DNA of 64,000 bases from an uncultured Gammaproteobacteria bacterium (lineage in GTDB: Bacteria > Patescibacteriota > Microgenomatia > Daviesbacterales > UBA10151): the NCBI GenBank assembly GCA_964504985.1, contig CAZDFU010000002.1, positions 11,782-75,781 of the forward strand. The letters run 5' to 3'. Below are positions 25,210-61,940 of the stretch, piece by piece. The position numbers and the translations under genes are program-made. The notes below the pieces were generated by a model. The model saw only the letters and a program-made list of their open reading frames with translations. It ran no database searches and had not been told where the DNA came from. Each line of letters begins with the position of its first letter. The first letter of the stretch is position 1.

Positions 25210-25851
25210 TCAAATCATTTTACCCAAAACAATAAGTCTTTTAAAATTTAATCCAGGAGGCACACAAGTCATCAAAGTTATATACCTGCCTTGTATTTCA
25301 GGAGCATTAATAACTGATATATCAGAAGGGTCAATTGCCTTCAAAGAAACAACCTGATATTTATACTTAGCCCCACTGGCCTCAATTATTATCTCATCAC
25401 CCTTTTTGAGATCTGTCAGGTTGGCAAAGAAAGCGGTTTTTAAACTAAAAAATTTGCTAAGGGCAGAATGGCCTGATATGAACACATTCCCTTTCTCGCC
25501 AGGCAAAGACGAACCTGGAAGATGAACCAATCCAGCTGATAAATCATTGCTGTCAACGAGAACTTGTACCTTATCTATCTTTAGCTTGGGAACTGATAAA
25601 ACAAATTCCTCATAGTTAGCTTTTGTTTCTCTTCTTAAACTTGAGATAATTGCTGGAAAGTTATTTTGTGTTTGGATGGATACGCCCAAAACCTGGGTAT
25701 CTTTTGTTTGCTTCGGACTAAAAAGTATCTGATTATTATAACCTTGTCCAATTAACCAAATTTGATATGAAATAATTGGCATAATTATCTGAATTAACAA
25801 AAATACTCCAATGAATAAAAAAGCAAGCGGTATTGCCTTCCCGAAAATCAT
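25210..25851 (-). CDS. Sortase family transpeptidase
   Basis: N-terminal TM; catalytic His in FISGHS; TLMTCVP active-site Cys motif; ATGA-coupled to the upstream 733-aa ORF. Confidence 0.8.
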   Translation of the reverse strand: MIFGKAIPLAFLFIGVFLLIQIIMPIISYQIWLIGQGYNNQILFSPKQTKDTQVLGVSIQTQNNFPAIISSLRRETKANYEEFVLSVPKLKIDKVQVLVDSNDLSAGLVHLPGSSLPGEKGNVFISGHSALSKFFSLKTAFFANLTDLKKGDEIIIEASGAKYKYQVVSLKAIDPSDISVINAPEIQGRYITLMTCVPPGLNFKRLIVLGKMI

Positions 25852-28052
25852 TACTTTAGCCCTACCCCAACCTTGATATTTTGACTCAGAATAGGAAGTC
25901 TTTGTAAAAATTTTGGCAGAGCAGGGGTAATCTTGATCTCAGATCCTAAAACATTCTCCATTCCCTTAAGGATATTTTCTGCTTCCGTTACCCCCTTACC
26001 TTGTATTTGGCTTTTTACTTTTGCCTCATCTATTTTAGGTAAAAGTTTTGCTTTAAACCGGGCCAAAAATATTAACTTACCATCCTTTTCTACCTTAGAA
26101 ACATCTGCCTGTGTTTCTGTATCTTCTAAATTGAGTTCAAAATCATTTGGAACATCAGTTGTTACAAGTTTTGATACAATTAATTTTAAGTCTTTATCTT
26201 CAAAAGCTGTCCCTTTATATTTGGTTGTTAAATTAAGAGAAAACTCTGATGCCTGATCATTGATATTTTTACTGAAAGTTTTTTTGACAATTTCCTCATT
26301 TAGGGCTTCTTCCAAAATCTTTTTATCAGATTCTGTTTCTTGTAATTTCTGTTGCGCTTGTTTTCTAAGTTTTGAACTCAATTCAGCAAGAAGCCTGTTT
26401 TGATCATCGCTTGAGACAACCACCACAGACTTTGAGGTTCCACCTGAAAAATTACCCTCTGCTTTAGCAGAAACCTGATTTGAAGAAAAACTACCCACGC
26501 TAAACTCTGAACCTGAGGGTAAGTTACCATCAGCACCCACAGCAGACGCTGTGACAGTAGCATTACTTTTACCATAAGTTATACCGCTGTCTGCAGCTGA
26601 TTGAGAAGCAATGGTGGCAGAGACATCAAGAGTAAATTTTAGACCTTTTGAAACAGTCAGGGTAGTTCCTTTACTTATTGACTTACTCTCGTTTGTTTTA
26701 TTATAAATAATCACTGTTCCTTTGGCTGGATCCCCAATTAGCTTACTGCCCGTTGCCTTATCCTTTAAAGAGTCTGAAACTTCTGTATTAACAATTTGCC
26801 CTGGAATTATTTTGGCCATTTCATCAACCAATTTTTGATTTGGGTCTGCCACCACGGTAGTATCTTTTTCCACCACCTTGGGTTCAACAAAGATTTTAAC
26901 TTCAGCTTTTGGCAACAGCACATATGCTGCAAAAGTTATAAGTAAGCCTAGAAAAACAATAACCAATAGAGCAAAACTCCCCCTCTTTCTTGGGATAAAC
27001 CTATTTAAAGTAAACAGTTTCTTCCCAGGCTTTTCTTCAAACTTTTCCGGTACAGTTAAATTTGTTTCTTGCGGGTCGGGCAACTCCTTTTCTTCTGCAA
27101 AATCTTCTTCCGGATTTACCAAATCTTCAGGCTCCTCTTCCTGAAGTTGTCCGGAGATGTCTCCTGCTACAAAACCAGAAAAATCCTGCTGGTTACTTTC
27201 TAACTTTTCCTTATCAACTTCTTCCTCATCCGCAAGTAAGGAGGATTTAACCGGATTTTGATCAATACCGGAGTTCTTTTCTTCCGTAATAGCTGAATCT
27301 GTATATAAAACATTACTTTCTAGTTCAGAAGCTCCTGCTAAACAAACGCTTTTTATTTCAATATCATCCTGAAGAGTATCTATCTTTGGAAAATGCAAAA
27401 AAGAGAGTTTAGACATCCAGGGAAACGACAGAAGCTGATTTTTTAATTCAGGAGCATTATCACCATAGATCAAAATTTTTGAGGGCAAGGTTTCAACAGC
27501 CGTAAAAACAAGCAATGCTTTCTCAATATCTGCTGCGCTGTTGTCTCCTCTGGAAACGGTTTTAACTCCATCAAGTTTTCCTGCCCTCACAACTGTTACT
27601 GTTAAATGGTGCGGTTCAAACCCCACTAAAATAGCAGTAGGGGGAACTCCATCAGTTTTTTCCAGTAAATGAATCAGGGCATTAGCACTTTCCACATATG
27701 CCATAGGAGTAAGCTCCAGCTCCTTAACTAAATCCCTTAACGCCTTTAAGCTGTCTTCCTTCAAATTTTCATCCTTAAGCCACGTGCTTGGGACACCAAA
27801 AAGGATTTTTTGCGGATCAACATCCCTTATTCCTAATACTGAATCTAAAAGTTTATCCGTAACTTTACTAAGCTCACTTAAAGAAGAATAGGTACCAGAG
27901 GCTGTTTCTAAAATTTTAAGCTGTTTTCCTTCAATCTGCCAAAGAGCAGCAATTAATTTCTCGTTGGAGATATTTACGGCAAAAAAATATTCTAAAACCT
28001 CTTCCTTTTTTGCAAAGGGCAGAAAGGCAGTTAATTTATCAGCAAAACTCAT
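25851..28052 (-). CDS. Bitopic membrane protein (733 aa): ~350-aa cytoplasmic N-domain, acidic linker, single TM, ~370-aa Ser/Thr-rich extracellular domain
   Basis: TM segment SFALLVIVFLGLLITFAAYVLL mid-protein; no signal peptide; stop overlaps the sortase start. Confidence 0.5.
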   Translation of the reverse strand: MSFADKLTAFLPFAKKEEVLEYFFAVNISNEKLIAALWQIEGKQLKILETASGTYSSLSELSKVTDKLLDSVLGIRDVDPQKILFGVPSTWLKDENLKEDSLKALRDLVKELELTPMAYVESANALIHLLEKTDGVPPTAILVGFEPHHLTVTVVRAGKLDGVKTVSRGDNSAADIEKALLVFTAVETLPSKILIYGDNAPELKNQLLSFPWMSKLSFLHFPKIDTLQDDIEIKSVCLAGASELESNVLYTDSAITEEKNSGIDQNPVKSSLLADEEEVDKEKLESNQQDFSGFVAGDISGQLQEEEPEDLVNPEEDFAEEKELPDPQETNLTVPEKFEEKPGKKLFTLNRFIPRKRGSFALLVIVFLGLLITFAAYVLLPKAEVKIFVEPKVVEKDTTVVADPNQKLVDEMAKIIPGQIVNTEVSDSLKDKATGSKLIGDPAKGTVIIYNKTNESKSISKGTTLTVSKGLKFTLDVSATIASQSAADSGITYGKSNATVTASAVGADGNLPSGSEFSVGSFSSNQVSAKAEGNFSGGTSKSVVVVSSDDQNRLLAELSSKLRKQAQQKLQETESDKKILEEALNEEIVKKTFSKNINDQASEFSLNLTTKYKGTAFEDKDLKLIVSKLVTTDVPNDFELNLEDTETQADVSKVEKDGKLIFLARFKAKLLPKIDEAKVKSQIQGKGVTEAENILKGMENVLGSEIKITPALPKFLQRLPILSQNIKVGVGLK

Positions 28053-39892: not shown

Positions 39893-42800
39893 CTACTTTA
39901 TTATTAAACGGAAGAGAACGAAACCACCCAGAAGCAGCACTACGATCACCATCACTACCTTAACATTAAAAGGCAAACCTTCTCCTGCTTTTTTTTGAGC
40001 TTGGGCTGCAGGCTGAGAACTTTCTGTTGCTTCACCTTGTACCTGACCCTGTTCACCAACACCAATATTACCCTGCTGATTTTCACCAGACACACCTAAC
40101 ACTCCAGAAGCAAATCCAACGGCTGTTGGTTGTATCGAGACTCCCAAAACCTGATTTTGCGGGGAGGTACTTCTAACGGAACAGTCATGGACTGCACAAC
40201 CTAATCCATCTCCACCATCACCTCCACTGCTTGAACTTGTGGAAGAAGTTGAGGTAGAAGTGGAACCAGTATGAGTAGTAGCATAGTATGAAGCCTTGGT
40301 GGCTTGGAATATACATAAACCATTACTTACTACACAGGTGGCAGGAGCTACAATCCCGTCAGATGTCCAGCCTGATGAAGTGCTGGAAGAACGGACTACA
40401 TTAAGTGTTTGTCCATTTAAAGCTGTTCCCACATAAATGTTTATAGTGATGGGACTGCTAAAACTTAACCCCAAATTAGGTATCCCCCATTGCATGGCCC
40501 CGTCAACCACCACTCCTGTCCCAAGTCCTGATAATGATCCTGTGGTGACATTTTGCGCGCTTAACAAAGACGTATCAATTAATCCCCCATCAGTTCTGGT
40601 AATAATAGTATTGGCTGGCAAAGATACGCTGCTTGTTCCGCCATTAACGCTGACGTTAATTGTGGAATCTCCCAAGACTACAATGGAAGAGGTTGAGCTC
40701 CCATCCCCGCTGGTGGGCACAAACTTGGCATCACTAAGCTGTTGGAAAGGAGCATTTCCAAACCTTAAAGGCTGGTCATTTTTATCCTTGGTAATTGAGG
40801 TTTCACCTTCCGTGGTCTGGCCACCAACTTCCACAAAAATATCAAAGAAGGAATCCACCTGAGGGTGGGTTCTTTGGAAATTATCCTGTGTGCTCTCAGT
40901 CATTCTATAAGTTCCCGGTTTATCTACCTCAAAAGAAGCTTTCCCATCATCATTGGTGGGAAGGATCCTTAGCCCCCCGTAGATAATTTCCTCGGTCATT
41001 ACCGGAGGTTGACCCTCAACCGGGTTAGGGGTTGAGGCGAGTGTTTTAATTGCTTCCTCTATCCTCATATCCCAGCCACCAATACCTAACTCACCTTTAT
41101 CCCATTCCCCATCTGCATTCAAATCTTTCCACTTAAAGATATCAATAATCACCTTCTTAAAATTACCAAAATCAATACCACTTACATCATTGCCTGATTG
41201 AGCCTCAATATCCGAAGGATTAGTAGTAGTCTGTATCCAGCCACTTTGTGAAGCTTCTCTCACTCTGTAAGTGCCGGGACGCAGATTATCAAGGCTGTAA
41301 CTGCCGTCTTCGCCTGTGGTAGCGGATTTCTCACCCTCATCAAAAACCCCGTTACTGTTTCCGTCGATAAAAATAGTCCAGCCGGACAATCTTTGGTCAG
41401 GATGATTAGGATCATTTGGATTATAAGAACCGTCAGCTATCATGTCCTCAAATTTCCAACCAGAGATAGTAATCTTTTTGAAATTTCCAAAATCATTATT
41501 TTCAGAATTCTCCCCTGCAGATAATGTTATCTCATATCCGTTTGTGCCATCCGGACAAATGGGGTTATTCAATGGGGTAGTTTGTGTCCAACCATCGAAG
41601 TTATCTGTACTGGTAGCGATATCCTCACAGACCCGATAAGTACCAGGTAAAAGATTTTCAAACAGATACTGTCCTGTATCTGCATCACCTGTCCAGGATT
41701 CCAAAGTTGTGTCATTATTTGGTCCACCGCTTAGGGTAATCCGCCAGCTATCTTCCTCCCACTCATTTTCTCTATCCCAGACCCCGTCTCCATTAGTGTC
41801 TATAAATTTATAGCCACTGATTGAGCCCCGCTTGGTGTTAGTAAAAGTACAGGTGATCGTTTCTCCGGTATTAGGTGTAATACTGTCGGGAGTATTGGTA
41901 CCGGTACAGGATGAACTGGTTAAATCCCAGCCCTCAGGAACATTCTCAGAAATACTGTAAGTATCGTCCGGATCAATATCAGTGAATGTTTGACTACCGC
42001 TGTTCGCTAATGTGGTTATCTGGGAAGAAGAAGCAGGCAGATTTTGACTGCTCATCTCAAAATCAAAAGTGTCATCACCTCCCAGAGTATTCTTCACTAA
42101 GACGATAGTGGCTAACTCTTTGTTGGTAAAAGTACAGGTAACAGTCTCACCGGCGCTGACATCAATTGCATCAACTGAGCTACCATCGCTACAAACGGCG
42201 CTGCTCAATTTCCATCCCGGCACTTCATCTTCTGAAACAGCATAGTTGCCGGGGAAAACTTCGGAGTCCTGGCTCTTTTTAAGCGTATTGGTTTCACTAC
42301 CGTCATCATCGAGCTGGAAGGTATCGGGGTTGCCGTTGCCAAAATTATTATGGAAGGTAAAATCCTGAGCGTTATTGGAAATGGCATCTTTGACAATAAC
42401 GACATGGCCATTAGGAATGACTGTAATGTCGAAGGTACGGGAGAAGAAGAGATCTAGGCTGTCAGTAGCTGTCACTGTAATAGTGGCTGTGCCACTGGAA
42501 TTGGCAACCGGCGTATAGGTCAGCGTTCGGGTAGCGCCGGAGCCGGAAACAGTCGGGTTTGGCACAACTGAAGCATCATTTGAGGTTGCAGACAAAATTA
42601 CTGTTTGATCAGATTCATCTGAGGGACCAGGGGAAATATTGGTGATGGTAATATTTTGTGCACCAACATCTTCATTAACTGTCTGGTTGGCAATTGCATC
42701 AAAAGACGGAGGGCGGTTATAGTTAACAGTGACATCTTGTAAAGTTGGAGTGGTATTAACAGTACCGGAAGTAGTTGCCCGCCACTGAAAATATTGATAC

Positions 42801-44200
42801 GTATCAGGCAAGGCGCTGCTTAAGTCTATTGGAGAGTTGGCTGATCCTAAAGATACCCAGGATGGACTAGTATCACCTTTGGCAAAAGCGGTATTTGATG
42901 CCCTAACTTCAAAAGTAATATCAGTTCCGGCAGCAAGACTTTCATTCCAGGATAAGGTTGAGTAAATAGTTGAGGTAGAGTTTGTATCTTTAACCTCTGA
43001 TATTTGAGTACCGCTGGTTCCGTATGTTTTATATTTTTCTGTAAAAATAAAATCATCCCCAAAATTAGTTGGCCAAGTAGAACCGCTATTGGTTGATTTA
43101 TATCCCCCTCCGCCAGTATAATCCGTGCTGCTGTTTTCACGGTACCAATCATAATCATCAGTGTCTGAGGTATTTGCCCGATGTACTACAATAGCGTATT
43201 GTGTGCCTGTGGTAACCGGGGCAGGTGAGGAAAAAACAAAGTTCACATTTCCCTTTGCGGTGGGAAGAGATGTAGGACTAACTGAGGCTGTTGCCAGGGG
43301 AGATGATGCGGTAGGTAAACCGCTGCTGGTGTTTCTAATTTCAACTGTCACATCTCCTGAACCATCATCGCTATTTTGTTTTCTTAGGCTTAAAGTTAAG
43401 CCAGTCAGCATTCCGTTTTGGGCAGGGGTGAAAGTTTGAGCTAACCATTTGGCACTGTCGAAAGTTTCTGCCGTTGTCCCTGTTGTTTGCAATTGATCAA
43501 CTATCTCTGAACCCAAGGCATTAGTCACACTGCCATCGCCACCTCCCACATCAGTGACAGTAGTTCCCGAAGAGGTTCCATTATTAAAATCTGTGACGGT
43601 GGTTACCACAAAGATAGTAAAATGGTTTAAACCTGTAATAGTGAGAGTATCTGTTTGGGCTGTTACTCCTCCTAAAGTAACAAAGGTCTGGTTATCTTCT
43701 GAGGCTTTAACCTCTACCTGTTCAGTTTTTGGGGTAGGCAAAGTTAAGGTATATTCAAAGGTACCATTTTCCATAGTAGAAGTGATATCATAAGCTTTGT
43801 CTGTCACAGGGTTTAAATTGTCATCTCCCAGGGAATTTACAGGTACTTCTTTAATTGAGATTTTGCCCGGGTTGGAAGGAAGTTTATTGAATTTTAATGT
43901 TACTTTATCATTTTGCGGAGCTTTGTATAATTGGTCAATCCTGACGTTTTCATGGGTGATGGCTATACCGCCGGGCCCATTATCCCAATCCAATACAGAT
44001 AAGGAAGCTGGCTCAACTGCTACAGCAGGAGAAACTGTTGCCGAAGCTGTAGACTCAAAAGATGTGTCTAAAACAACCTGACTATTTAACTGAGCAGAAG
44101 TAGTGGCTTCCTGGGCCAGAACCGGGAAAGTATATTGCCCAAACAATAATAAAAAGACAGTAATTAAACTAAACGCCTTTTTTAAACCTTTAAAAAACAT
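39893..44200 (-). CDS. Giant cell-surface repeat protein (1435 aa): signal peptide, Ser/Thr-rich regions, paired ...GETxTCTFTN prealbumin-like modules, several SdrD-B-type repeats (PGTYRVxE), C-terminal TM anchor
   Basis: N-terminal signal LITVFLLLFGQYTFPVLAQE; repeats GYKFIDTNGDGVWD...PGTYRVCE and GWKFEDMIADGSYN...PGTYRVRE; C-terminus VVMVIVVLLLGGFVLFRLIIK. Confidence 0.75.
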   Translation of the reverse strand: MFFKGLKKAFSLITVFLLLFGQYTFPVLAQEATTSAQLNSQVVLDTSFESTASATVSPAVAVEPASLSVLDWDNGPGGIAITHENVRIDQLYKAPQNDKVTLKFNKLPSNPGKISIKEVPVNSLGDDNLNPVTDKAYDITSTMENGTFEYTLTLPTPKTEQVEVKASEDNQTFVTLGGVTAQTDTLTITGLNHFTIFVVTTVTDFNNGTSSGTTVTDVGGGDGSVTNALGSEIVDQLQTTGTTAETFDSAKWLAQTFTPAQNGMLTGLTLSLRKQNSDDGSGDVTVEIRNTSSGLPTASSPLATASVSPTSLPTAKGNVNFVFSSPAPVTTGTQYAIVVHRANTSDTDDYDWYRENSSTDYTGGGGYKSTNSGSTWPTNFGDDFIFTEKYKTYGTSGTQISEVKDTNSTSTIYSTLSWNESLAAGTDITFEVRASNTAFAKGDTSPSWVSLGSANSPIDLSSALPDTYQYFQWRATTSGTVNTTPTLQDVTVNYNRPPSFDAIANQTVNEDVGAQNITITNISPGPSDESDQTVILSATSNDASVVPNPTVSGSGATRTLTYTPVANSSGTATITVTATDSLDLFFSRTFDITVIPNGHVVIVKDAISNNAQDFTFHNNFGNGNPDTFQLDDDGSETNTLKKSQDSEVFPGNYAVSEDEVPGWKLSSAVCSDGSSVDAIDVSAGETVTCTFTNKELATIVLVKNTLGGDDTFDFEMSSQNLPASSSQITTLANSGSQTFTDIDPDDTYSISENVPEGWDLTSSSCTGTNTPDSITPNTGETITCTFTNTKRGSISGYKFIDTNGDGVWDRENEWEEDSWRITLSGGPNNDTTLESWTGDADTGQYLFENLLPGTYRVCEDIATSTDNFDGWTQTTPLNNPICPDGTNGYEITLSAGENSENNDFGNFKKITISGWKFEDMIADGSYNPNDPNHPDQRLSGWTIFIDGNSNGVFDEGEKSATTGEDGSYSLDNLRPGTYRVREASQSGWIQTTTNPSDIEAQSGNDVSGIDFGNFKKVIIDIFKWKDLNADGEWDKGELGIGGWDMRIEEAIKTLASTPNPVEGQPPVMTEEIIYGGLRILPTNDDGKASFEVDKPGTYRMTESTQDNFQRTHPQVDSFFDIFVEVGGQTTEGETSITKDKNDQPLRFGNAPFQQLSDAKFVPTSGDGSSTSSIVVLGDSTINVSVNGGTSSVSLPANTIITRTDGGLIDTSLLSAQNVTTGSLSGLGTGVVVDGAMQWGIPNLGLSFSSPITINIYVGTALNGQTLNVVRSSSTSSGWTSDGIVAPATCVVSNGLCIFQATKASYYATTHTGSTSTSTSSTSSSSGGDGGDGLGCAVHDCSVRSTSPQNQVLGVSIQPTAVGFASGVLGVSGENQQGNIGVGEQGQVQGEATESSQPAAQAQKKAGEGLPFNVKVVMVIVVLLLGGFVLFRLIIK

Positions 44201-59347: not shown

Positions 59348-59578
59348 ATGCCAATTATCAAATCAGCAATAAAAAAGGTCAGAAAAGATAAGGTAAGAAC
59401 AGCCCGTAATAAAAAAAGGGGGGGTGTTTTAAAATCTTTAGTAAAGAAAGCCCGGGAATCAAAAACAACCAAGAATTTACAATTGGCATTTTCCGCTTTG
59501 GATAAAGCTGCCAAAGTAAAATTAATCCACCCAAACAAGGCTGCGCGCTTAAAATCAAGACTGTCAAAGAAATCTTAA
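59348..59578 (+). CDS. rpsT: 30S ribosomal protein S20 (bS20)
   Basis: MPIIKSAIKKVRKDKVRTARNKKR...LIHPNKAARLKSRL. Confidence 0.9.
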   Translation: MPIIKSAIKKVRKDKVRTARNKKRGGVLKSLVKKARESKTTKNLQLAFSALDKAAKVKLIHPNKAARLKSRLSKKS

Positions 59579-59622
59579 CTACCCACTACAACCTACCACC
59601 AGCAACCTAGTATAATGTACTC

Positions 59623-60207
59623 ATGCCCAAACAAAAGAGCCTTAAACTTGGTATACACCTGGATTTACTAAGGCCTCAAAGTAATCCTGAACAACTTTTA
59701 ACAAAACTTTTGCGTTGGTTGCTCTCTACCGGTCGCTACATATTTGTCTTTGTGGAAGCTCTGGTTTTAATAGTTTTTATTGCCAGGTTCAAATTAGATG
59801 AGGAGTTAGCTTTAAAAAAAGAAACAATTGAGAGCCAGATTCCCTATATTGAGAGTCTAAAACCTTTTGAACTCTTGGCAAGGCAGACCCAGCTTAAGCT
59901 AACAACTATTTCCTCCCTCCGTAGATCTGGTGCTGACTATCCTCTGGTTTTAAAAAACATTGCCGATCAAACTCCCATGGGGATAACAATCGGCAGTATC
60001 AGGATGGAAAAAACCGCCCAGCAGGTAATTATCCAATTAAATGGCATTGCTCCAAATAATGGCGATTTGGCTAACTTCTTAAGCGGATTAAAACAAGAAC
60101 CGCTCCTTTCAGATGTTAGTATTACCAGTGTTGGTTTTGATAAAGGCAGTTTAAATTTCAGCATAACAGCCAAGTCAAAGGCCTCTGCTGCGGGGAGCAA
60201 TCTATGA
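59623..60207 (+). CDS. pilN: Type IV pilus assembly protein PilN-like
   Basis: Short cytoplasmic N-terminus with an INLLP-like motif (IHLDLLRP), one TM, coiled coil, ~110-aa C-domain; ATGA-coupled to the next gene. Confidence 0.55.
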   Translation: MPKQKSLKLGIHLDLLRPQSNPEQLLTKLLRWLLSTGRYIFVFVEALVLIVFIARFKLDEELALKKETIESQIPYIESLKPFELLARQTQLKLTTISSLRRSGADYPLVLKNIADQTPMGITIGSIRMEKTAQQVIIQLNGIAPNNGDLANFLSGLKQEPLLSDVSITSVGFDKGSLNFSITAKSKASAAGSNL

Positions 60208-60809
60208 GAAGTCAATCTCAAATCTACTCCAGGTATTTTACTTATATAAAACCCTTTATTAGACACCCTTTTGTTAGAACTTACGGCTCAACGGTTTTTA
60301 CGCTTTTGGTTATGAGCATCCTCATAGTGTATGCCATCAAACCAACTGTGGAAACTATTTTAGTTTTGCAAAAGAAACTGGCTGACTCGAATGAAGTTGC
60401 GGAAAAGATTACCCAGAAGACAAACAACTTATCAAAAGCTCAAGAAAATTATGCCAATTTGGATCCAGATATTAAATCTAAAATTGAGACAGCCATACCT
60501 GATAGCGTTTCACTTAAATCGCTTATGCAGACACTTGAACAAACTGCCAAAAAATATGAGGCTTCAGTTTCTGCGTTGCAAATCCAGCCATTAGTTTTGG
60601 AGGCTAAAACAGATGAAAAAGTGGGCAGTCTTTCGGATGTTTCTTTTACCCTCAGCGCTGAGGGAGAGTATCAAAAAATAATTTCTATATTGCAGGATTT
60701 GATGGTTAGTGATAGGTTAATTTCGATAGACAATGTATCCTTATCAAAGCTAAGCGAAGGATCAGGGATCGCTATATCCCTTTCCGGAAAAGCCTATTAT
60801 ATTAAATAA
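60204..60809 (+). CDS. pilO: Type IV pilus assembly protein PilO-like
   Basis: TM plus coiled coil plus C-terminal domain (FTLSAEGEYQKIISILQDLMVSDRLISIDNVSL, PilO-like). Confidence 0.55.
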   Translation: MRSQSQIYSRYFTYIKPFIRHPFVRTYGSTVFTLLVMSILIVYAIKPTVETILVLQKKLADSNEVAEKITQKTNNLSKAQENYANLDPDIKSKIETAIPDSVSLKSLMQTLEQTAKKYEASVSALQIQPLVLEAKTDEKVGSLSDVSFTLSAEGEYQKIISILQDLMVSDRLISIDNVSLSKLSEGSGIAISLSGKAYYIK

Positions 60810-60816
60810 TTTCAAT

Positions 60817-60993
60817 ATGATAAAAAAAGAATGGTTGATTTTGGCAATTATAACTTTTATCACAATCTCTGCCTGGGTGATATTTGATATATTCCACGCC
60901 CGCGCCCGCGTTGAAATCTCTCCGAAAGTACAGGAGGCAATTGAACCCTTAAACCCAGAGTTTGATATTTCAGGGCTTAAGACTGCACCATGA
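60817..60993 (+). CDS. Small single-TM protein (58 aa), not in ORF track; stop overlaps the next start (ATGA)
   Basis: Manual translation MIKKEWLILAIITFITISAWVIFDIFHARARVEISPKVQEAIEPLNPEFDISGLKTAP. Confidence 0.4.
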   Translation: MIKKEWLILAIITFITISAWVIFDIFHARARVEISPKVQEAIEPLNPEFDISGLKTAP

Positions 60994-61940
60994 ATGATTT
61001 TCTAAGCAAGTTCAGGATCCCCACTCTTTTAGGACTTGGTATTATAATTTCTGCAATAACAGCAGGTGTATTCTTAGTTTTAAAAGAACAAACTATTACC
61101 TCTCAGGCCTCACCTAACCTGACGGTTCAAAATATCACCCTGACCAACCTTTCGGATGACTCAGCAACCATTTTTTGGCAAACTTCTGCTGCCCTGCCTT
61201 CTTTTATAACCTTAGGTTCTCAAAATCCCAGTGAAACCACCATTTTAGATGACAGAGACACCATTCCCGCCTCAGACAATGCAGGACCAAAGGCCCGTTT
61301 ATTACACTATGCCACCATAAAAAATCTTCTTCCTAAAACAACTTACCGCTATAAAATTACCTCTGGAAACTCATCTTCAGATACTTTTGAGTTTACCACT
61401 GCTGCGCCGCTTAACTTTCAAACAGGACAAAGACCGGTTATAGGGTCTGTGCTTGATGGAGACAAACCGCTTGCAGAGGCTGTAGCTATTCTTTCTATCA
61501 CTAACGCAGCTACGCAATCTGCTTTAATCAAAGAGGATGGTAATTTTTTAATACCTATATCTCAAGTCAGGAAAGCAGATCTTTCCGAAGGCATATCTTT
61601 AACAGAAAACACCACTGCCAAATTAACTATTTTGTCTACAAAAGGACAGGCTGCTGCCATTTTTAGGCTAGCTGACTTTGAAAACGGACTGCCTCCTATT
61701 GTTTTGGGAGAAAATCTGGATCTTACTTCTTTGAAGGAGAATTTAACTAAGTATGATTTAAATGCGGATGGCGGAATAAACTCAACAGATTATTCAATTG
61801 TTTTTCAAAATCTAGGCCCTTTGCGTGAAGCCTTTCCACAACGTAAACAAGTAGGTAAAAATCCTAAAGCTGATTTAAACTCGGACGGAGTTGTTGATCA
61901 GAAAGATTTGGATCTGATTTCAAAACAAATTAACAAGTGA
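60990..61940 (+). CDS. Membrane-anchored protein with fibronectin type III-like domain and C-terminal type I dockerin repeats
   Basis: N-terminal TM; Fn3-like segment SDDSATIFWQTS...TYRYKITSGNSSSDTFEFTTA; Ca-binding loops DLNADGGINSTD and DLNSDGVVDQKD. Confidence 0.65.
   Translation: MNDFLSKFRIPTLLGLGIIISAITAGVFLVLKEQTITSQASPNLTVQNITLTNLSDDSATIFWQTSAALPSFITLGSQNPSETTILDDRDTIPASDNAGPKARLLHYATIKNLLPKTTYRYKITSGNSSSDTFEFTTAAPLNFQTGQRPVIGSVLDGDKPLAEAVAILSITNAATQSALIKEDGNFLIPISQVRKADLSEGISLTENTTAKLTILSTKGQAAAIFRLADFENGLPPIVLGENLDLTSLKENLTKYDLNADGGINSTDYSIVFQNLGPLREAFPQRKQVGKNPKADLNSDGVVDQKDLDLISKQINK

What the first reader, a model, noticed from the sequence alone, without database searches (positions are those of the whole stretch)
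59623..60993. pilN-pilO-like pair plus a coupled 58-aa membrane mini-ORF beside rpsT, with no pilM/pilB/pilC/pilin nearby
Two consecutive ATGA-coupled genes encode TM + coiled-coil + small-domain proteins. One has a PilN-type N-terminal PilM-binding motif (IHLDLLRP resembling INLLP) and the other a PilO-type C-domain. A further ATGA-coupled 58-aa single-TM ORF, absent from the ORF track, follows. The inner-membrane alignment subcomplex is thus encoded away from any ATPase, platform or pilin gene and is fused into an operon with a dockerin protein. This could be a re-purposed T4P-like envelope-spanning module in an organism likely lacking an outer membrane.
Basis: inference. Interest (0 to 1): 0.6.

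Follow-up and report, generated by a model that had tools for sequence, protein, structure and literature searches.

The report
Split-off pilN-pilO operon with two partners
These genes really are the PilN and PilO membrane parts of a type IV pilus machine in an ultrasmall (CPR, Daviesbacteria-like) bacterium, and across this whole bacterial group they sit apart from the other pilus genes in a fixed four-gene operon with a tiny membrane protein and a membrane-anchored stalk protein whose role is unknown.

Summary
ORFs 59623-60207 and 60204-60809 pass Pfam's curated cut-offs for PilN and PilO. The PilN model folds like solved PilN/PilO/GspL/GspM domains. DivIC/FtsB is rejected. The 58-aa ORF (60817-60993) is a real gene, with homologues at the same position in 79 of 80 distant loci. 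No pilM, pilB/T-type Walker A or prepilin motif was found in the window or within ±10 kb in 93 related loci.

The arrangement is not peculiar to this genome. The order pilN, pilO, mini-TM, TM-FN3 stalk, usually beside rpsT, is conserved across the Microgenomates group. Only the Daviesbacteria type and one other locus (L013) end the stalk in a dockerin; sampled other lineages carry an Ig-like Big_13 domain instead. Cohesin genes lie close to the module in a few loci.

PilN keeps a PilM-binding INLLP motif, canonical in distant relatives and with a one-residue insertion here. A published complete Microgenomates genome lists a pilus locus with PilM but no PilN/PilO. The most likely reading is therefore the ordinary pilus assembly sub-complex encoded at a second locus, not a re-purposed module. 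I could not locate pilM in these genomes. The two conserved partner proteins appear undescribed and may link the machine to the cell wall.

The parts
59348..59578 (+). rpsT (ribosomal protein S20). It is the conserved upstream neighbour and anchor of the module, not part of the machine.
   Evidence: Pfam Ribosomal_S20p, E=5e-15. rpsT lies directly upstream in most related loci, or about 2 kb away on the other strand in the Pacebacteria type.
59610..59616 (+). GTATAAT -10-like box, 6 nt before the pilN ATG. It probably marks the operon's own promoter and a leaderless or near-leaderless mRNA.
   Evidence: The same heptamer sits 6-9 nt upstream of the pilN ATG in all five Daviesbacteria-type loci (window, L002, L004, L006, L014), while the rest of the spacer differs. 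The consensus promoter scan found no -35/-10 pair here, so this is an inference from conservation.
59623..60207 (+). pilN: a bitopic membrane protein (194 aa) with a cytoplasmic tail, a TM helix plus coiled coil, and a ferredoxin-like domain.
   Evidence: Pfam PilN 35.6 bits against a cut-off of 22.8. AF2 (pLDDT 80) gives a disordered stretch 1-19, a helix 23-102, and alpha-beta-beta-alpha-beta-beta 106-186. The top 10 Foldseek PDB hits are all PilO/PilN/GspM/GspL periplasmic domains. The best PDB sequence match is M. xanthus PilN, 3jc8. NCBI names relatives 'PilN domain-containing protein'.
59653..59676 (+). PilN residues 11-18, IHLDLLRP: an INLLP-type PilM-binding motif with a one-residue insertion.
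   Evidence: I11, L13, L15, L16, P18 and Q19 are invariant in 14 homologues of 56-86% identity. 117 of 120 close homologues carry this form. 56 of 80 distant Microgenomates PilNs carry the canonical xNLLP at the aligned position.
60204..60809 (+). pilO: a bitopic membrane protein (201 aa), translationally coupled to pilN by an ATGA overlap.
   Evidence: Pfam PilO 30.6 bits (cut-off 22) and T2SSM_b 29.3 bits (cut-off 21.7). The best PDB sequence match is M. xanthus PilO, 3jc8. It lies immediately after pilN in 79/80 scanned loci.
60817..60993 (+). Mini-ORF: a 58-aa single-TM protein with a short external tail carrying an (I/L)xP(L/I)xPxxD motif. It is the third conserved component.
   Evidence: 64-66% identical in relatives, the same level as its neighbours. 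It is recognisably homologous in lineages whose PilN is only about 27-30% identical. An HMM finds it directly after pilO in 79/80 genome loci. It has no Pfam or NCBIfam family. NCBI's annotation of GCA_028715175.1 leaves it uncalled.
60990..61940 (+). Stalk protein (316 aa): an N-terminal TM helix, an FN3 (Pur_ac_phosph_N-like) domain, a second beta-sandwich (CarboxypepD_reg-like) and a type I dockerin. It overlaps the mini-ORF by ATGA.
   Evidence: Pfam Pur_ac_phosph_N 42.3 bits and Dockerin_1 42.9 bits. AF2 (pLDDT 82) gives a helix 10-39, a beta-sandwich 46-137, a beta-sandwich 150-245 and helices 252-315. Foldseek's best matches are tandem FN3 proteins, and no catalytic domain appears. It is the fourth gene in 73/80 loci; the loci lacking it end at a contig edge.
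61737..61937 (+). Dockerin module of the stalk protein (residues about 250-316), with two Ca-binding repeats, DLNADGGINSTD and DLNSDGVVDQKD.
   Evidence: Pfam Dockerin_1 over residues 255-315 in two stretches. D256, N258, D260, N264, D267, D295, N297 and D306 are invariant in 60 homologues. The motif is absent from 73/73 stalk orthologues of the other Microgenomates lineages. The seven of those I scanned with Pfam carry Big_13 Ig-like domains there (also L009).

Best explanation
The locus encodes the PilN-PilO membrane sub-complex of this organism's type IVa pilus machine. In the Microgenomates group of CPR bacteria it is encoded apart from the main pilus locus, as a fixed four-gene operon beside rpsT.

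Shown: both proteins belong to the PilN and PilO families by profile, and PilN also by fold. The four genes are tightly packed and co-oriented. The order pilN, pilO, mini-TM, TM-Ig-like stalk is conserved across the group.

Inferred mechanism:
- PilN's disordered cytoplasmic tail (IHLDLLRP, an INLLP variant) docks the actin-like PilM, which is encoded with pilB/pilC/pilT elsewhere.
- PilN and PilO pair through their TM/coiled-coil helices and ferredoxin-like domains around the PilC platform.
- The 58-aa protein and the stalk protein are both N-in/C-out bitopic membrane proteins. They join this complex through their conserved membrane-proximal segments.
- The stalk projects two to three Ig-like domains away from the membrane. 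It sits in the gene position, and has the TM-plus-beta-sandwich-plus-variable-tail architecture, that PilP or GspC have in double-membrane bacteria. It probably stabilises PilN-PilO and ties the machine to the wall or surface layer.
- In the Daviesbacteria type the tie is a dockerin that would bind cohesin-domain surface proteins.
For: - Family assignment: Pfam scores above the curated cut-offs. Reciprocal best PDB matches to M. xanthus PilN and PilO. The AF2 model and Foldseek hits fall on PilO/PilN/GspM/GspL domains.
- PilM-binding motif: invariant in close homologues. Canonical INLLP in distant family members at the aligned position. 117/120 close homologues carry the insertion form and 56/80 distant ones the canonical form.
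- Module conservation: seven independent contexts from the protein look-ups. In addition, 80/80 genome loci from Shapiro-, Beckwith-, Ames-, Pace- and Chisholmbacteria and others, with PilO in 79, the mini protein in 79 and the stalk in 73; the missing cases are contig ends.
- No genome contributed two PilN loci among the 80 kept.
- Literature: PilM, PilN and PilO are all essential for piliation in a single-membrane bacterium (PMC6916266). PilM/PilN/PilO families are enriched in CPR (PMC6744442). The complete Microgenomates genome Ch65 has one pilus locus with pilins, PilD, PilB, PilT, PilC and PilM, and PilN/PilO are not listed there (PMC7143001).
- Stalk architecture. Cohesin genes adjacent to or near the module: L013 (three genes directly upstream of pilN), L007 and L023.
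Against: - I could not find pilM, pilB, pilC or pilins in this genome or in any relative. None lies within ±10 kb of the module in 93 related loci or anywhere in the 64-kb window. The link to the pilus therefore rests on homology, the motif and the literature.
- The Daviesbacteria-type motif has an insertion whose effect on PilM binding is unknown.
- Ch65's PilN/PilO may simply be unannotated within its pilus locus.
- The stalk and mini proteins show no sequence similarity to PilP or GspC. Their proposed role is positional and architectural inference only.
- No cohesin gene was found in the window or in the ±10 kb of the Daviesbacteria-type relatives.
- The constant company of surface proteins and envelope-biogenesis genes (murJ, lytR) would also fit a non-pilus envelope role.
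Confidence: 0.7

Rival explanations
1. A re-purposed PilN/PilO-like scaffold that no longer serves the pilus. The four bitopic proteins would form an independent envelope complex that anchors or organises surface proteins, with cohesin-dockerin assemblies, Ig-like stalks and sortase substrates on the wall or S-layer of these episymbionts.
For: - The module is never next to pilus genes in 94 loci.
- It is always operonic with a surface stalk protein.
- Cohesin, dockerin-protease and LPXTG-like genes lie beside it in some lineages.
- It sits among envelope genes: murJ, lytR and, in some lineages, PMT glycosyltransferases.
- Saccharibacteria keep full pilM-pilN-pilO sets inside their pilus loci (PMC12206443), so separation is not universal in CPR.
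Against: - The cytoplasmic INLLP motif, whose only known role is PilM binding, is conserved across the family.
- Only one PilN locus per genome appeared in the scan.
- The Microgenomates pilus locus is reported with PilM but without PilN/PilO, which would leave both halves orphaned.
- PilN/PilO are essential for piliation in single-membrane bacteria.
Confidence: 0.2
2. The pair serves a different type IV filament machine, a competence (DNA-uptake) pseudopilus or a type II secretion-like pseudopilus, rather than a surface pilus. The proteins would then act as GspL(C-terminal)/GspM-like partners.
For: - PilO also matches T2SSM_b above its cut-off (29.3 bits against 21.7).
- Fold hits include PulM, XcpY and EpsL domains.
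- CPR pili are widely proposed to act in DNA uptake (PMC6744442; PMC11809585).
Against: - The NCBIfam GspM equivalog scores 23.8 bits against a cut-off of 60.
- PilN has the free INLLP tail of PilM-dependent T4a systems, not a fused GspL cytoplasmic domain.
- CPR lack secretins and an outer membrane (PMC6744442).
- A DNA-uptake function would still run through the same T4a machine, so this rival is more a question of output than of mechanism.
Confidence: 0.08
3. Divisome FtsB/FtsL/DivIC-type proteins, which share the TM-plus-coiled-coil layout.
For: Both proteins have a TM helix followed by a long helix. There is a faint DivIC hit on PilO, E=0.68 and 10.2 bits.
Against: - The DivIC score is far below its cut-off of 28.9 bits, while the PilN and PilO scores are above theirs.
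- Both proteins have a C-terminal ferredoxin-like domain that FtsB/FtsL lack, and the structural neighbours are PilO/PilN/GspM/GspL.
- No division genes lie in the operon.
Confidence: 0.01

Closest known systems
PilM-PilN-PilO-PilP alignment/assembly sub-complex of type IVa pili in double-membrane bacteria (P. aeruginosa, M. xanthus; PDB 3jc8, 2rjz, 4bhq)
   Same: - PilN and PilO family membership, with the same bitopic topology and ferredoxin-like fold.
- An INLLP-type tail on PilN.
- pilN-pilO gene order with translational coupling.
- A membrane-anchored beta-sandwich protein encoded right after pilO, the position of pilP.
   Different: - No pilM upstream and no pilQ secretin.
- The downstream proteins share no detectable sequence similarity with PilP.
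- An extra 58-aa TM protein.
- The stalk is TM-anchored rather than a lipoprotein, and is built of FN3, CarboxypepD_reg and dockerin or Big_13 domains.
- The operon lies away from every other pilus gene.
PilM-PilN-PilO assembly sub-complex of single-membrane Firmicutes (S. sanguinis, Clostridia; Pelicic 2019, PMC6916266)
   Same: - A single-membrane envelope, with no secretin and no PilP.
- PilM/N/O are needed for assembly itself.
- An unexplained extra extracellular part is associated with PilO.
   Different: - In Firmicutes the extra part is fused to PilO (56.6 against 22.3 kDa) and the genes sit inside the pilus cluster.
- Firmicute PilN is proposed to use a different PilM-binding motif, at the C-terminus.
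- Here PilO is of canonical size, the extra extracellular proteins are separate genes, and PilN keeps the diderm-type N-terminal motif.
Saccharibacteria (TM7x) pilM1N1O1 and pilM2N2O2 (PMC12206443)
   Same: CPR bacteria with type IVa pili and PilM/N/O homologues.
   Different: In TM7x both sets lie inside pilus loci next to pilB/pilC. Here and throughout the Microgenomates group, pilN-pilO are detached and joined to the mini-TM and stalk genes.
GspL-GspM-GspC of type II secretion
   Same: - The same fold for the periplasmic domains; PilO matches T2SSM_b.
- GspC is a bitopic protein with a TM helix, a beta-sandwich and a variable C-terminal interaction domain, as the stalk protein is.
   Different: - No fused cytoplasmic GspL domain, no secretin, and no outer membrane in CPR.
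- The NCBIfam GspM score is well below its cut-off.
Non-cellulosomal cohesin-dockerin modules (Peer et al. 2009, as cited in PMC10066038)
   Same: A type I dockerin with two Ca-binding repeats on a non-enzymatic surface protein. Cohesin-domain genes lie next to the module in some relatives.
   Different: The dockerin sits on a membrane-anchored stalk that is co-operonic with pilus assembly proteins. I found no description of that pairing in four full-text searches.

Membership tests
PilN (Pfam PF05137) | Profile match above the curated gathering score | tested here: met
   35.6 bits against 22.8, residues 109-183. A profile of 14 homologues finds M. xanthus PilN (3jc8) as the best PDB sequence, though only at E=0.066.
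PilN (Pfam PF05137) | Bitopic layout: short cytoplasmic tail, one TM helix, coiled coil, ferredoxin-like alpha-beta-beta-alpha-beta-beta domain | tested here: met
   The AF2 model has pLDDT 80, with elements H23-102, H106-116, E122-130, E134-143, H146-158, E162-173 and E176-186. The top 10 Foldseek hits are PilO, PilN, PulM and XcpY domains.
PilN (Pfam PF05137) | Conserved N-terminal INLLP motif that binds PilM | tested here: met
   The motif here is IHLDLLRP, that is, the INLLP motif with one inserted residue. It is invariant in close homologues and aligns with canonical INLLP in distant family members. Binding itself was not tested.
PilN (Pfam PF05137) | Encoded directly downstream of pilM | tested here: not met
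   rpsT, not pilM, lies upstream. No actin-like ATPase gene was found within ±10 kb in the 80 scanned loci. The Pfam-annotated contexts show no PilM_2.
PilO (Pfam PF04350) | Profile match above the curated gathering score | tested here: met
   30.6 bits against 22, residues 57-193. The best PDB sequence match is M. xanthus PilO (3jc8) at E=0.036.
PilO (Pfam PF04350) | Encoded immediately after pilN, with which it forms a heterodimer | tested here: inconclusive
   Adjacency and ATGA coupling are shown and hold in 79/80 loci. Heterodimer formation could not be modelled because the tools offer no multimer prediction.
Type IVa pilus machinery (system level) | PilB/PilT ATPases, PilC platform, PilD peptidase, PilM and pilins present in the same genome | not testable with these tools
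   Only 64 kb of this genome and ±10 kb of the relatives could be read, and none of these genes is there. The literature reports them in Microgenomates (PMC7143001) and in most CPR classes (PMC12206443; PMC6744442).
FtsB/FtsL/DivIC divisome proteins | Profile match to DivIC/FtsB/FtsL, with no globular C-terminal ferredoxin-like domain | tested here: not met
   DivIC scores E=0.68 and 10.2 bits against a cut-off of 28.9. PilN has a C-terminal alpha-beta domain.
Type II secretion GspM | Equivalog-level match to GspM, plus the rest of a T2SS (secretin, GspC, GspL) | tested here: not met
   T2SSM_b domain-level match of 29.3 bits (cut-off 21.7), but the NCBIfam GspM equivalog scores 23.8 against 60. 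No secretin or GspL-like gene lies in the window.
PilP / GspC linker proteins (considered for the stalk protein) | Sequence or profile similarity to the PilP or T2SS-C HR domain | tested here: not met
   A Pfam scan at E<=10 returns only Dockerin_1, Pur_ac_phosph_N, fn3 and EF-hand. Foldseek's best hits are generic tandem FN3. The resemblance is in gene position and domain plan only.
Type I dockerin (PF00404) | Two Ca-binding repeats matching the profile above its cut-off | tested here: met
   42.9 bits against 22.9, in two stretches over residues 255-315. The Ca-ligand positions are invariant in 60 homologues.
Type I dockerin (PF00404) | A cohesin partner encoded in the genome | tested here: inconclusive
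   No cohesin was found in the window or in the Daviesbacteria-type flanks. Cohesin genes lie next to the module in L013 (three genes), L007 and L023.

The most novel reading that the evidence does not exclude
The 58-aa membrane protein and the TM-anchored Ig-like stalk are unrecognised core parts of the type IV pilus machine in this large group of single-membrane CPR bacteria. They would be the separately encoded counterpart of the unexplained large C-terminal part of Firmicute PilO, and a functional stand-in for PilP/PilQ. Their job would be to guide or anchor the machine across the cell wall and surface layer. In some lineages the link would be a cohesin-dockerin plug-in that could also couple the pilus base to host-binding surface proteins.
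Probability: 0.3. Interest if true: 0.65.

Novelty: new variant of a known kind. Interest (0 to 1): 0.42.

Why it matters
How type IV pili cross and anchor in the wall of single-membrane bacteria is an explicitly open question (Pelicic 2019, PMC6916266). In CPR bacteria these pili are the leading candidates for host attachment and DNA uptake. This locus offers a group-wide, tightly conserved pair of extra proteins operonic with PilN-PilO, which gives concrete candidates to test. It also shows that pilus-gene censuses in Microgenomates will miss PilN/PilO if only the main pilus locus is inspected, and that the 58-aa gene is sometimes left unannotated. The PilN/PilO pair on its own is ordinary and already named automatically by NCBI.

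Tried and rejected
**1. Finding pilM in these genomes.** No route worked.
- All three homology searches were needed elsewhere, and a non-CPR PilM query would list only its own relatives.
- A PilT query from memory on viral contigs found nothing.
- A forced Walker-A pattern scan on viral contigs gave 30 loci, none from CPR and none with PilN/PilO.

**2. The 733-aa protein at 25851-28052.** I asked whether it hides a PilM-like actin fold. It has no PDB sequence match and only a weak Baseplate_J Pfam hit, so I dropped the idea.

**3. Unannotated neighbours of the module in distant loci.** I scanned the 144-562-aa proteins in L008, L009, L010 and L013 for PilM. There were no such hits, only a weak LPXTG anchor in one.

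**4. Broad PilN alignments for the genome scan.** A narrower alignment worked.

**6. Source contig.** An exact look-up of the window's PilN returned only a 1.8-kb Logan contig, not the 77-kb NCBI contig.

**7. Supplementary tables of PMC12206443.** I checked them for per-lineage pil gene hits. They hold only genome lists for Microgenomates.

**8. Consensus promoter and terminator scan.** It gave nothing above the shuffled background.
Full report
**What is in the sequence**

The four ORFs lie at the stated coordinates on the + strand:
- A: 59623-60207, 194 aa
- B: 60204-60809, 201 aa
- C: 60817-60993, 58 aa
- D: 60990-61940, 316 aa

A/B and C/D overlap by ATGA. C starts 7 nt after the stop of B in this window, but overlaps B by ATGA in relatives L002 and L004. 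rpsT lies just upstream at 59348-59578. murJ and lepA lie on the other strand further upstream. holA, a lytR-family gene and tpiA follow on the other strand.

The window has 38.8% G+C. It is otherwise filled with ribosomal-protein, rpoBC, tuf/fusA, chaperone and envelope genes of a CPR bacterium. The closest named relatives are Candidatus Daviesbacteria and 'Microgenomates group' genomes.

**Family assignment of A and B**

A passes Pfam's curated cut-off for PilN (35.6 bits against 22.8). B passes the cut-offs for PilO (30.6 against 22) and for T2SSM_b (29.3 against 21.7). DivIC scores only E=0.68. The NCBIfam GspM equivalog is far below its cut-off.

Profiles of A and B find M. xanthus PilN and PilO respectively as the best solved-structure sequences, although weakly (E=0.066 and 0.036).

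An AlphaFold2 model of A, built from 61 sequences, has pLDDT 80. It shows a disordered tail (1-19), one long helix (23-102) and an alpha-beta-beta-alpha-beta-beta domain. Its ten best Foldseek matches in the PDB are all PilO, PilN, PulM or XcpY periplasmic domains.

The PilN/PilO call stands.

**The PilM-binding motif**

An exhaustive profile search found 629 cluster representatives of this PilN family. Their N-termini form a series:
- canonical INLLP in the distant members (for example GINLLPQEE, EINLLPQED)
- LNLLYPQG in intermediate members
- L(D/N)LLxPQS in the Daviesbacteria type

By simple pattern count, 117 of 120 close homologues carry the insertion form, and 56 of 80 distant Microgenomates PilNs carry xNLLP. 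The consensus over 89 sequences is 'inLlP'.

The only known role of this motif is to bind PilM (PMC6916266). Its conservation is therefore indirect evidence that a PilM exists in these genomes.

**The mini-ORF is a real gene**

C is 64-66% identical to its counterparts in relatives whose PilN, PilO and D are 54-67% identical. Small ORFs of 56-108 aa at the same position in lineages with only about 27-30% PilN identity align with it. They share the TM helix with an invariant Trp and an external (I/L)xP(L/I)xPxLD motif. An HMM built from nine of them finds a match directly after pilO in 79 of 80 independent genome loci.

C matches no Pfam or NCBIfam family. NCBI's annotation of one Daviesbacteria genome leaves it uncalled. 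It was called on the source contig.

**The fourth gene**

D matches Pur_ac_phosph_N/fn3 (residues 48-137) and Dockerin_1 (255-315). The AlphaFold2 model, built from 60 sequences, has pLDDT 82. It shows an N-terminal TM helix, two beta-sandwich domains and a helical dockerin. Its structural neighbours are tandem FN3 proteins, and no catalytic domain appears. The second domain carries the G-x-V-x-D-x-x-x-P-x-x-x-A-x-V signature. In orthologues it matches CarboxypepD_reg.

Orthologues elsewhere in the Microgenomates group are 420-630 aa long. They keep the TM helix, the FN3 domain and the second sandwich. None of the 73 carries the dockerin motif, and those I scanned with Pfam have an Ig-like Big_13 domain in that region. 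The conserved entity is therefore a membrane-anchored chain of Ig-like domains. The dockerin is a tail specific to the Daviesbacteria type and to L013.

**Conservation of the arrangement**

Pfam-annotated contexts of close homologues (56-64% PilN identity) all show murJ, rpsT, pilN, pilO, mini and stalk, followed by holA, lytR and tpiA. Homologues with only about 30% PilN identity and a canonical motif show the same core in:
- a 100-kb contig
- a 709-kb contig
- a 143-kb contig
- a 30-kb contig

A scan of one genome per species with a PilN alignment found 182 relatives. The best 80 come from Shapiro-, Beckwith-, Ames-, Pace- and Chisholmbacteria and other Microgenomates-group genomes, many of them with misleading record titles. 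My own HMMs found PilN in 80, PilO in 79, the mini protein in 79 and the stalk in 73, always in that order. The gaps are explained by contig ends. rpsT is adjacent in most loci and about 2 kb away on the other strand in the Pacebacteria type. No assembly contributed two loci.

**Absence of other pilus genes**

I found no prepilin signal motif and no PilB/PilT Walker A in the window, in the 13 look-up loci or in the 80 scan loci. An actin-like N-terminal motif scan of the 80 scan loci was also negative. None of the Pfam-annotated contexts shows PilM_2, T2SSE or T2SSF.

**Cohesin genes near the module**

- In L013, three cohesin-domain genes sit directly upstream of pilN. The stalk there carries a dockerin.
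- In L007, a cohesin-like gene and a dockerin-bearing S8 protease follow the module.
- In L023, a cohesin gene (49 bits) lies 4 kb upstream.
- None was found in the window or in the Daviesbacteria-type flanks.

**Interpretation**

PilM, PilN and PilO are all required for pilus assembly in the one single-membrane bacterium analysed systematically (PMC6916266). These families are enriched in CPR (PMC6744442). The closed genome of the Microgenomates member Ch65 is described as having all pilus components at one locus: pilins, PilD, PilB, PilT, PilC and PilM. PilN and PilO are not mentioned (PMC7143001).

An orphan PilM at the pilus locus and an orphan PilN-PilO pair with a conserved PilM-binding tail at the rpsT locus complement each other. 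I therefore read this locus as the pilus assembly sub-complex encoded at a second site (about 0.7). The alternative is a re-purposed module (about 0.2). The direct test is a search of these genomes for pilM and for a second pilN-pilO pair. I could not run it with the caps and collections available.

**The two extra proteins**

All four products are N-in/C-out bitopic membrane proteins with conserved membrane-proximal segments. This fits a joint membrane complex.

The stalk occupies the gene position of pilP. It also has the TM-plus-beta-sandwich-plus-variable-tail plan of GspC. It has no detectable sequence similarity to either, so this is a 'works like' proposal, not a membership claim.

Pelicic noted that Firmicute PilO is much larger than PilN. 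He speculated that the extra part deals with peptidoglycan crossing or anchoring. Here PilO is of canonical size, and extra extracellular proteins are encoded separately in the same operon. They are candidates for that role.

In Saccharibacteria, a dockerin protein and an FN3 protein are among the essential envelope proteins (PMC10633639). Whether they correspond to the stalk was not tested.

**Novelty and score**

PilN/PilO in CPR are known and named automatically. Three things appear undescribed in four full-text searches of the paper library:
- the group-wide detachment of pilN-pilO from pilM
- the fixed partnership with a mini-TM protein and an Ig-like stalk
- the dockerin/cohesin link in some lineages

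I rate this a new variant of a known kind, with moderate interest (0.42).

Noticed in passing
window 59610-59616; L002, L004, L006 and L014 just upstream of pilN: A GTATAAT box lies 6-9 nt upstream of the pilN start codon in all five Daviesbacteria-type loci, although the rest of the rpsT-pilN spacer has diverged. This suggests an operon-specific promoter and a leaderless or near-leaderless pilN mRNA. It is not seen in the more distant loci.
   Followed up: partly
window 25210-25851 (-), 25851-28052 (-) and 39893-44200 (-): A sortase gene overlaps the end of a 733-aa protein that has only a weak Baseplate_J match. A 1435-aa protein carries SpaA/SdrD-type prealbumin-fold repeats. Together they indicate a Gram-positive-style sortase and surface-protein system in this CPR genome.
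   Followed up: no
L014 9831-10004; L006 9750-9977; L010 11533-12864: Public gene calls miss parts of the module. The mini-ORF is uncalled in NCBI's annotation of Ca. Daviesbacteria GCA_028715175.1. rpsT is missed in L006, where a spurious opposite-strand ORF was called. The stalk gene is missed in L010-L012.
   Followed up: yes
L004 2166-3550 and L006 12252-13642: Reverse transcriptase (RVT_1) plus bAvd gene pairs, typical of diversity-generating retroelements, lie within a few kb of the module in two relatives. In L006 the pair sits directly after the stalk gene.
   Followed up: no
L015-L094 record titles: Many genomes that clearly carry the Microgenomates module are titled 'uncultured Gammaproteobacteria', 'Pseudomonadales', 'Nevskiaceae', 'Bathyarchaeia archaeon' or 'TM6' (CP011212.1). 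Record titles in this collection are unreliable for CPR genomes.
   Followed up: no
L008 10158-10769; L008 12071-15537; L010 14989-15936: In some lineages the module is followed by further surface-related genes. One is a 203-aa protein with a weak LPXTG-type anchor match. Others are protein O-mannosyltransferase (PMT) genes.
   Followed up: no
window 60204-60290 (PilO residues 8-28): The cytoplasmic N-terminus of PilO (YSRYFTYIKP...TYG) is invariant over ten consecutive residues in the four Daviesbacteria-type sequences. This hints at a cytoplasmic partner for PilO as well. The stretch is much less conserved across the wider group.
   Followed up: partly
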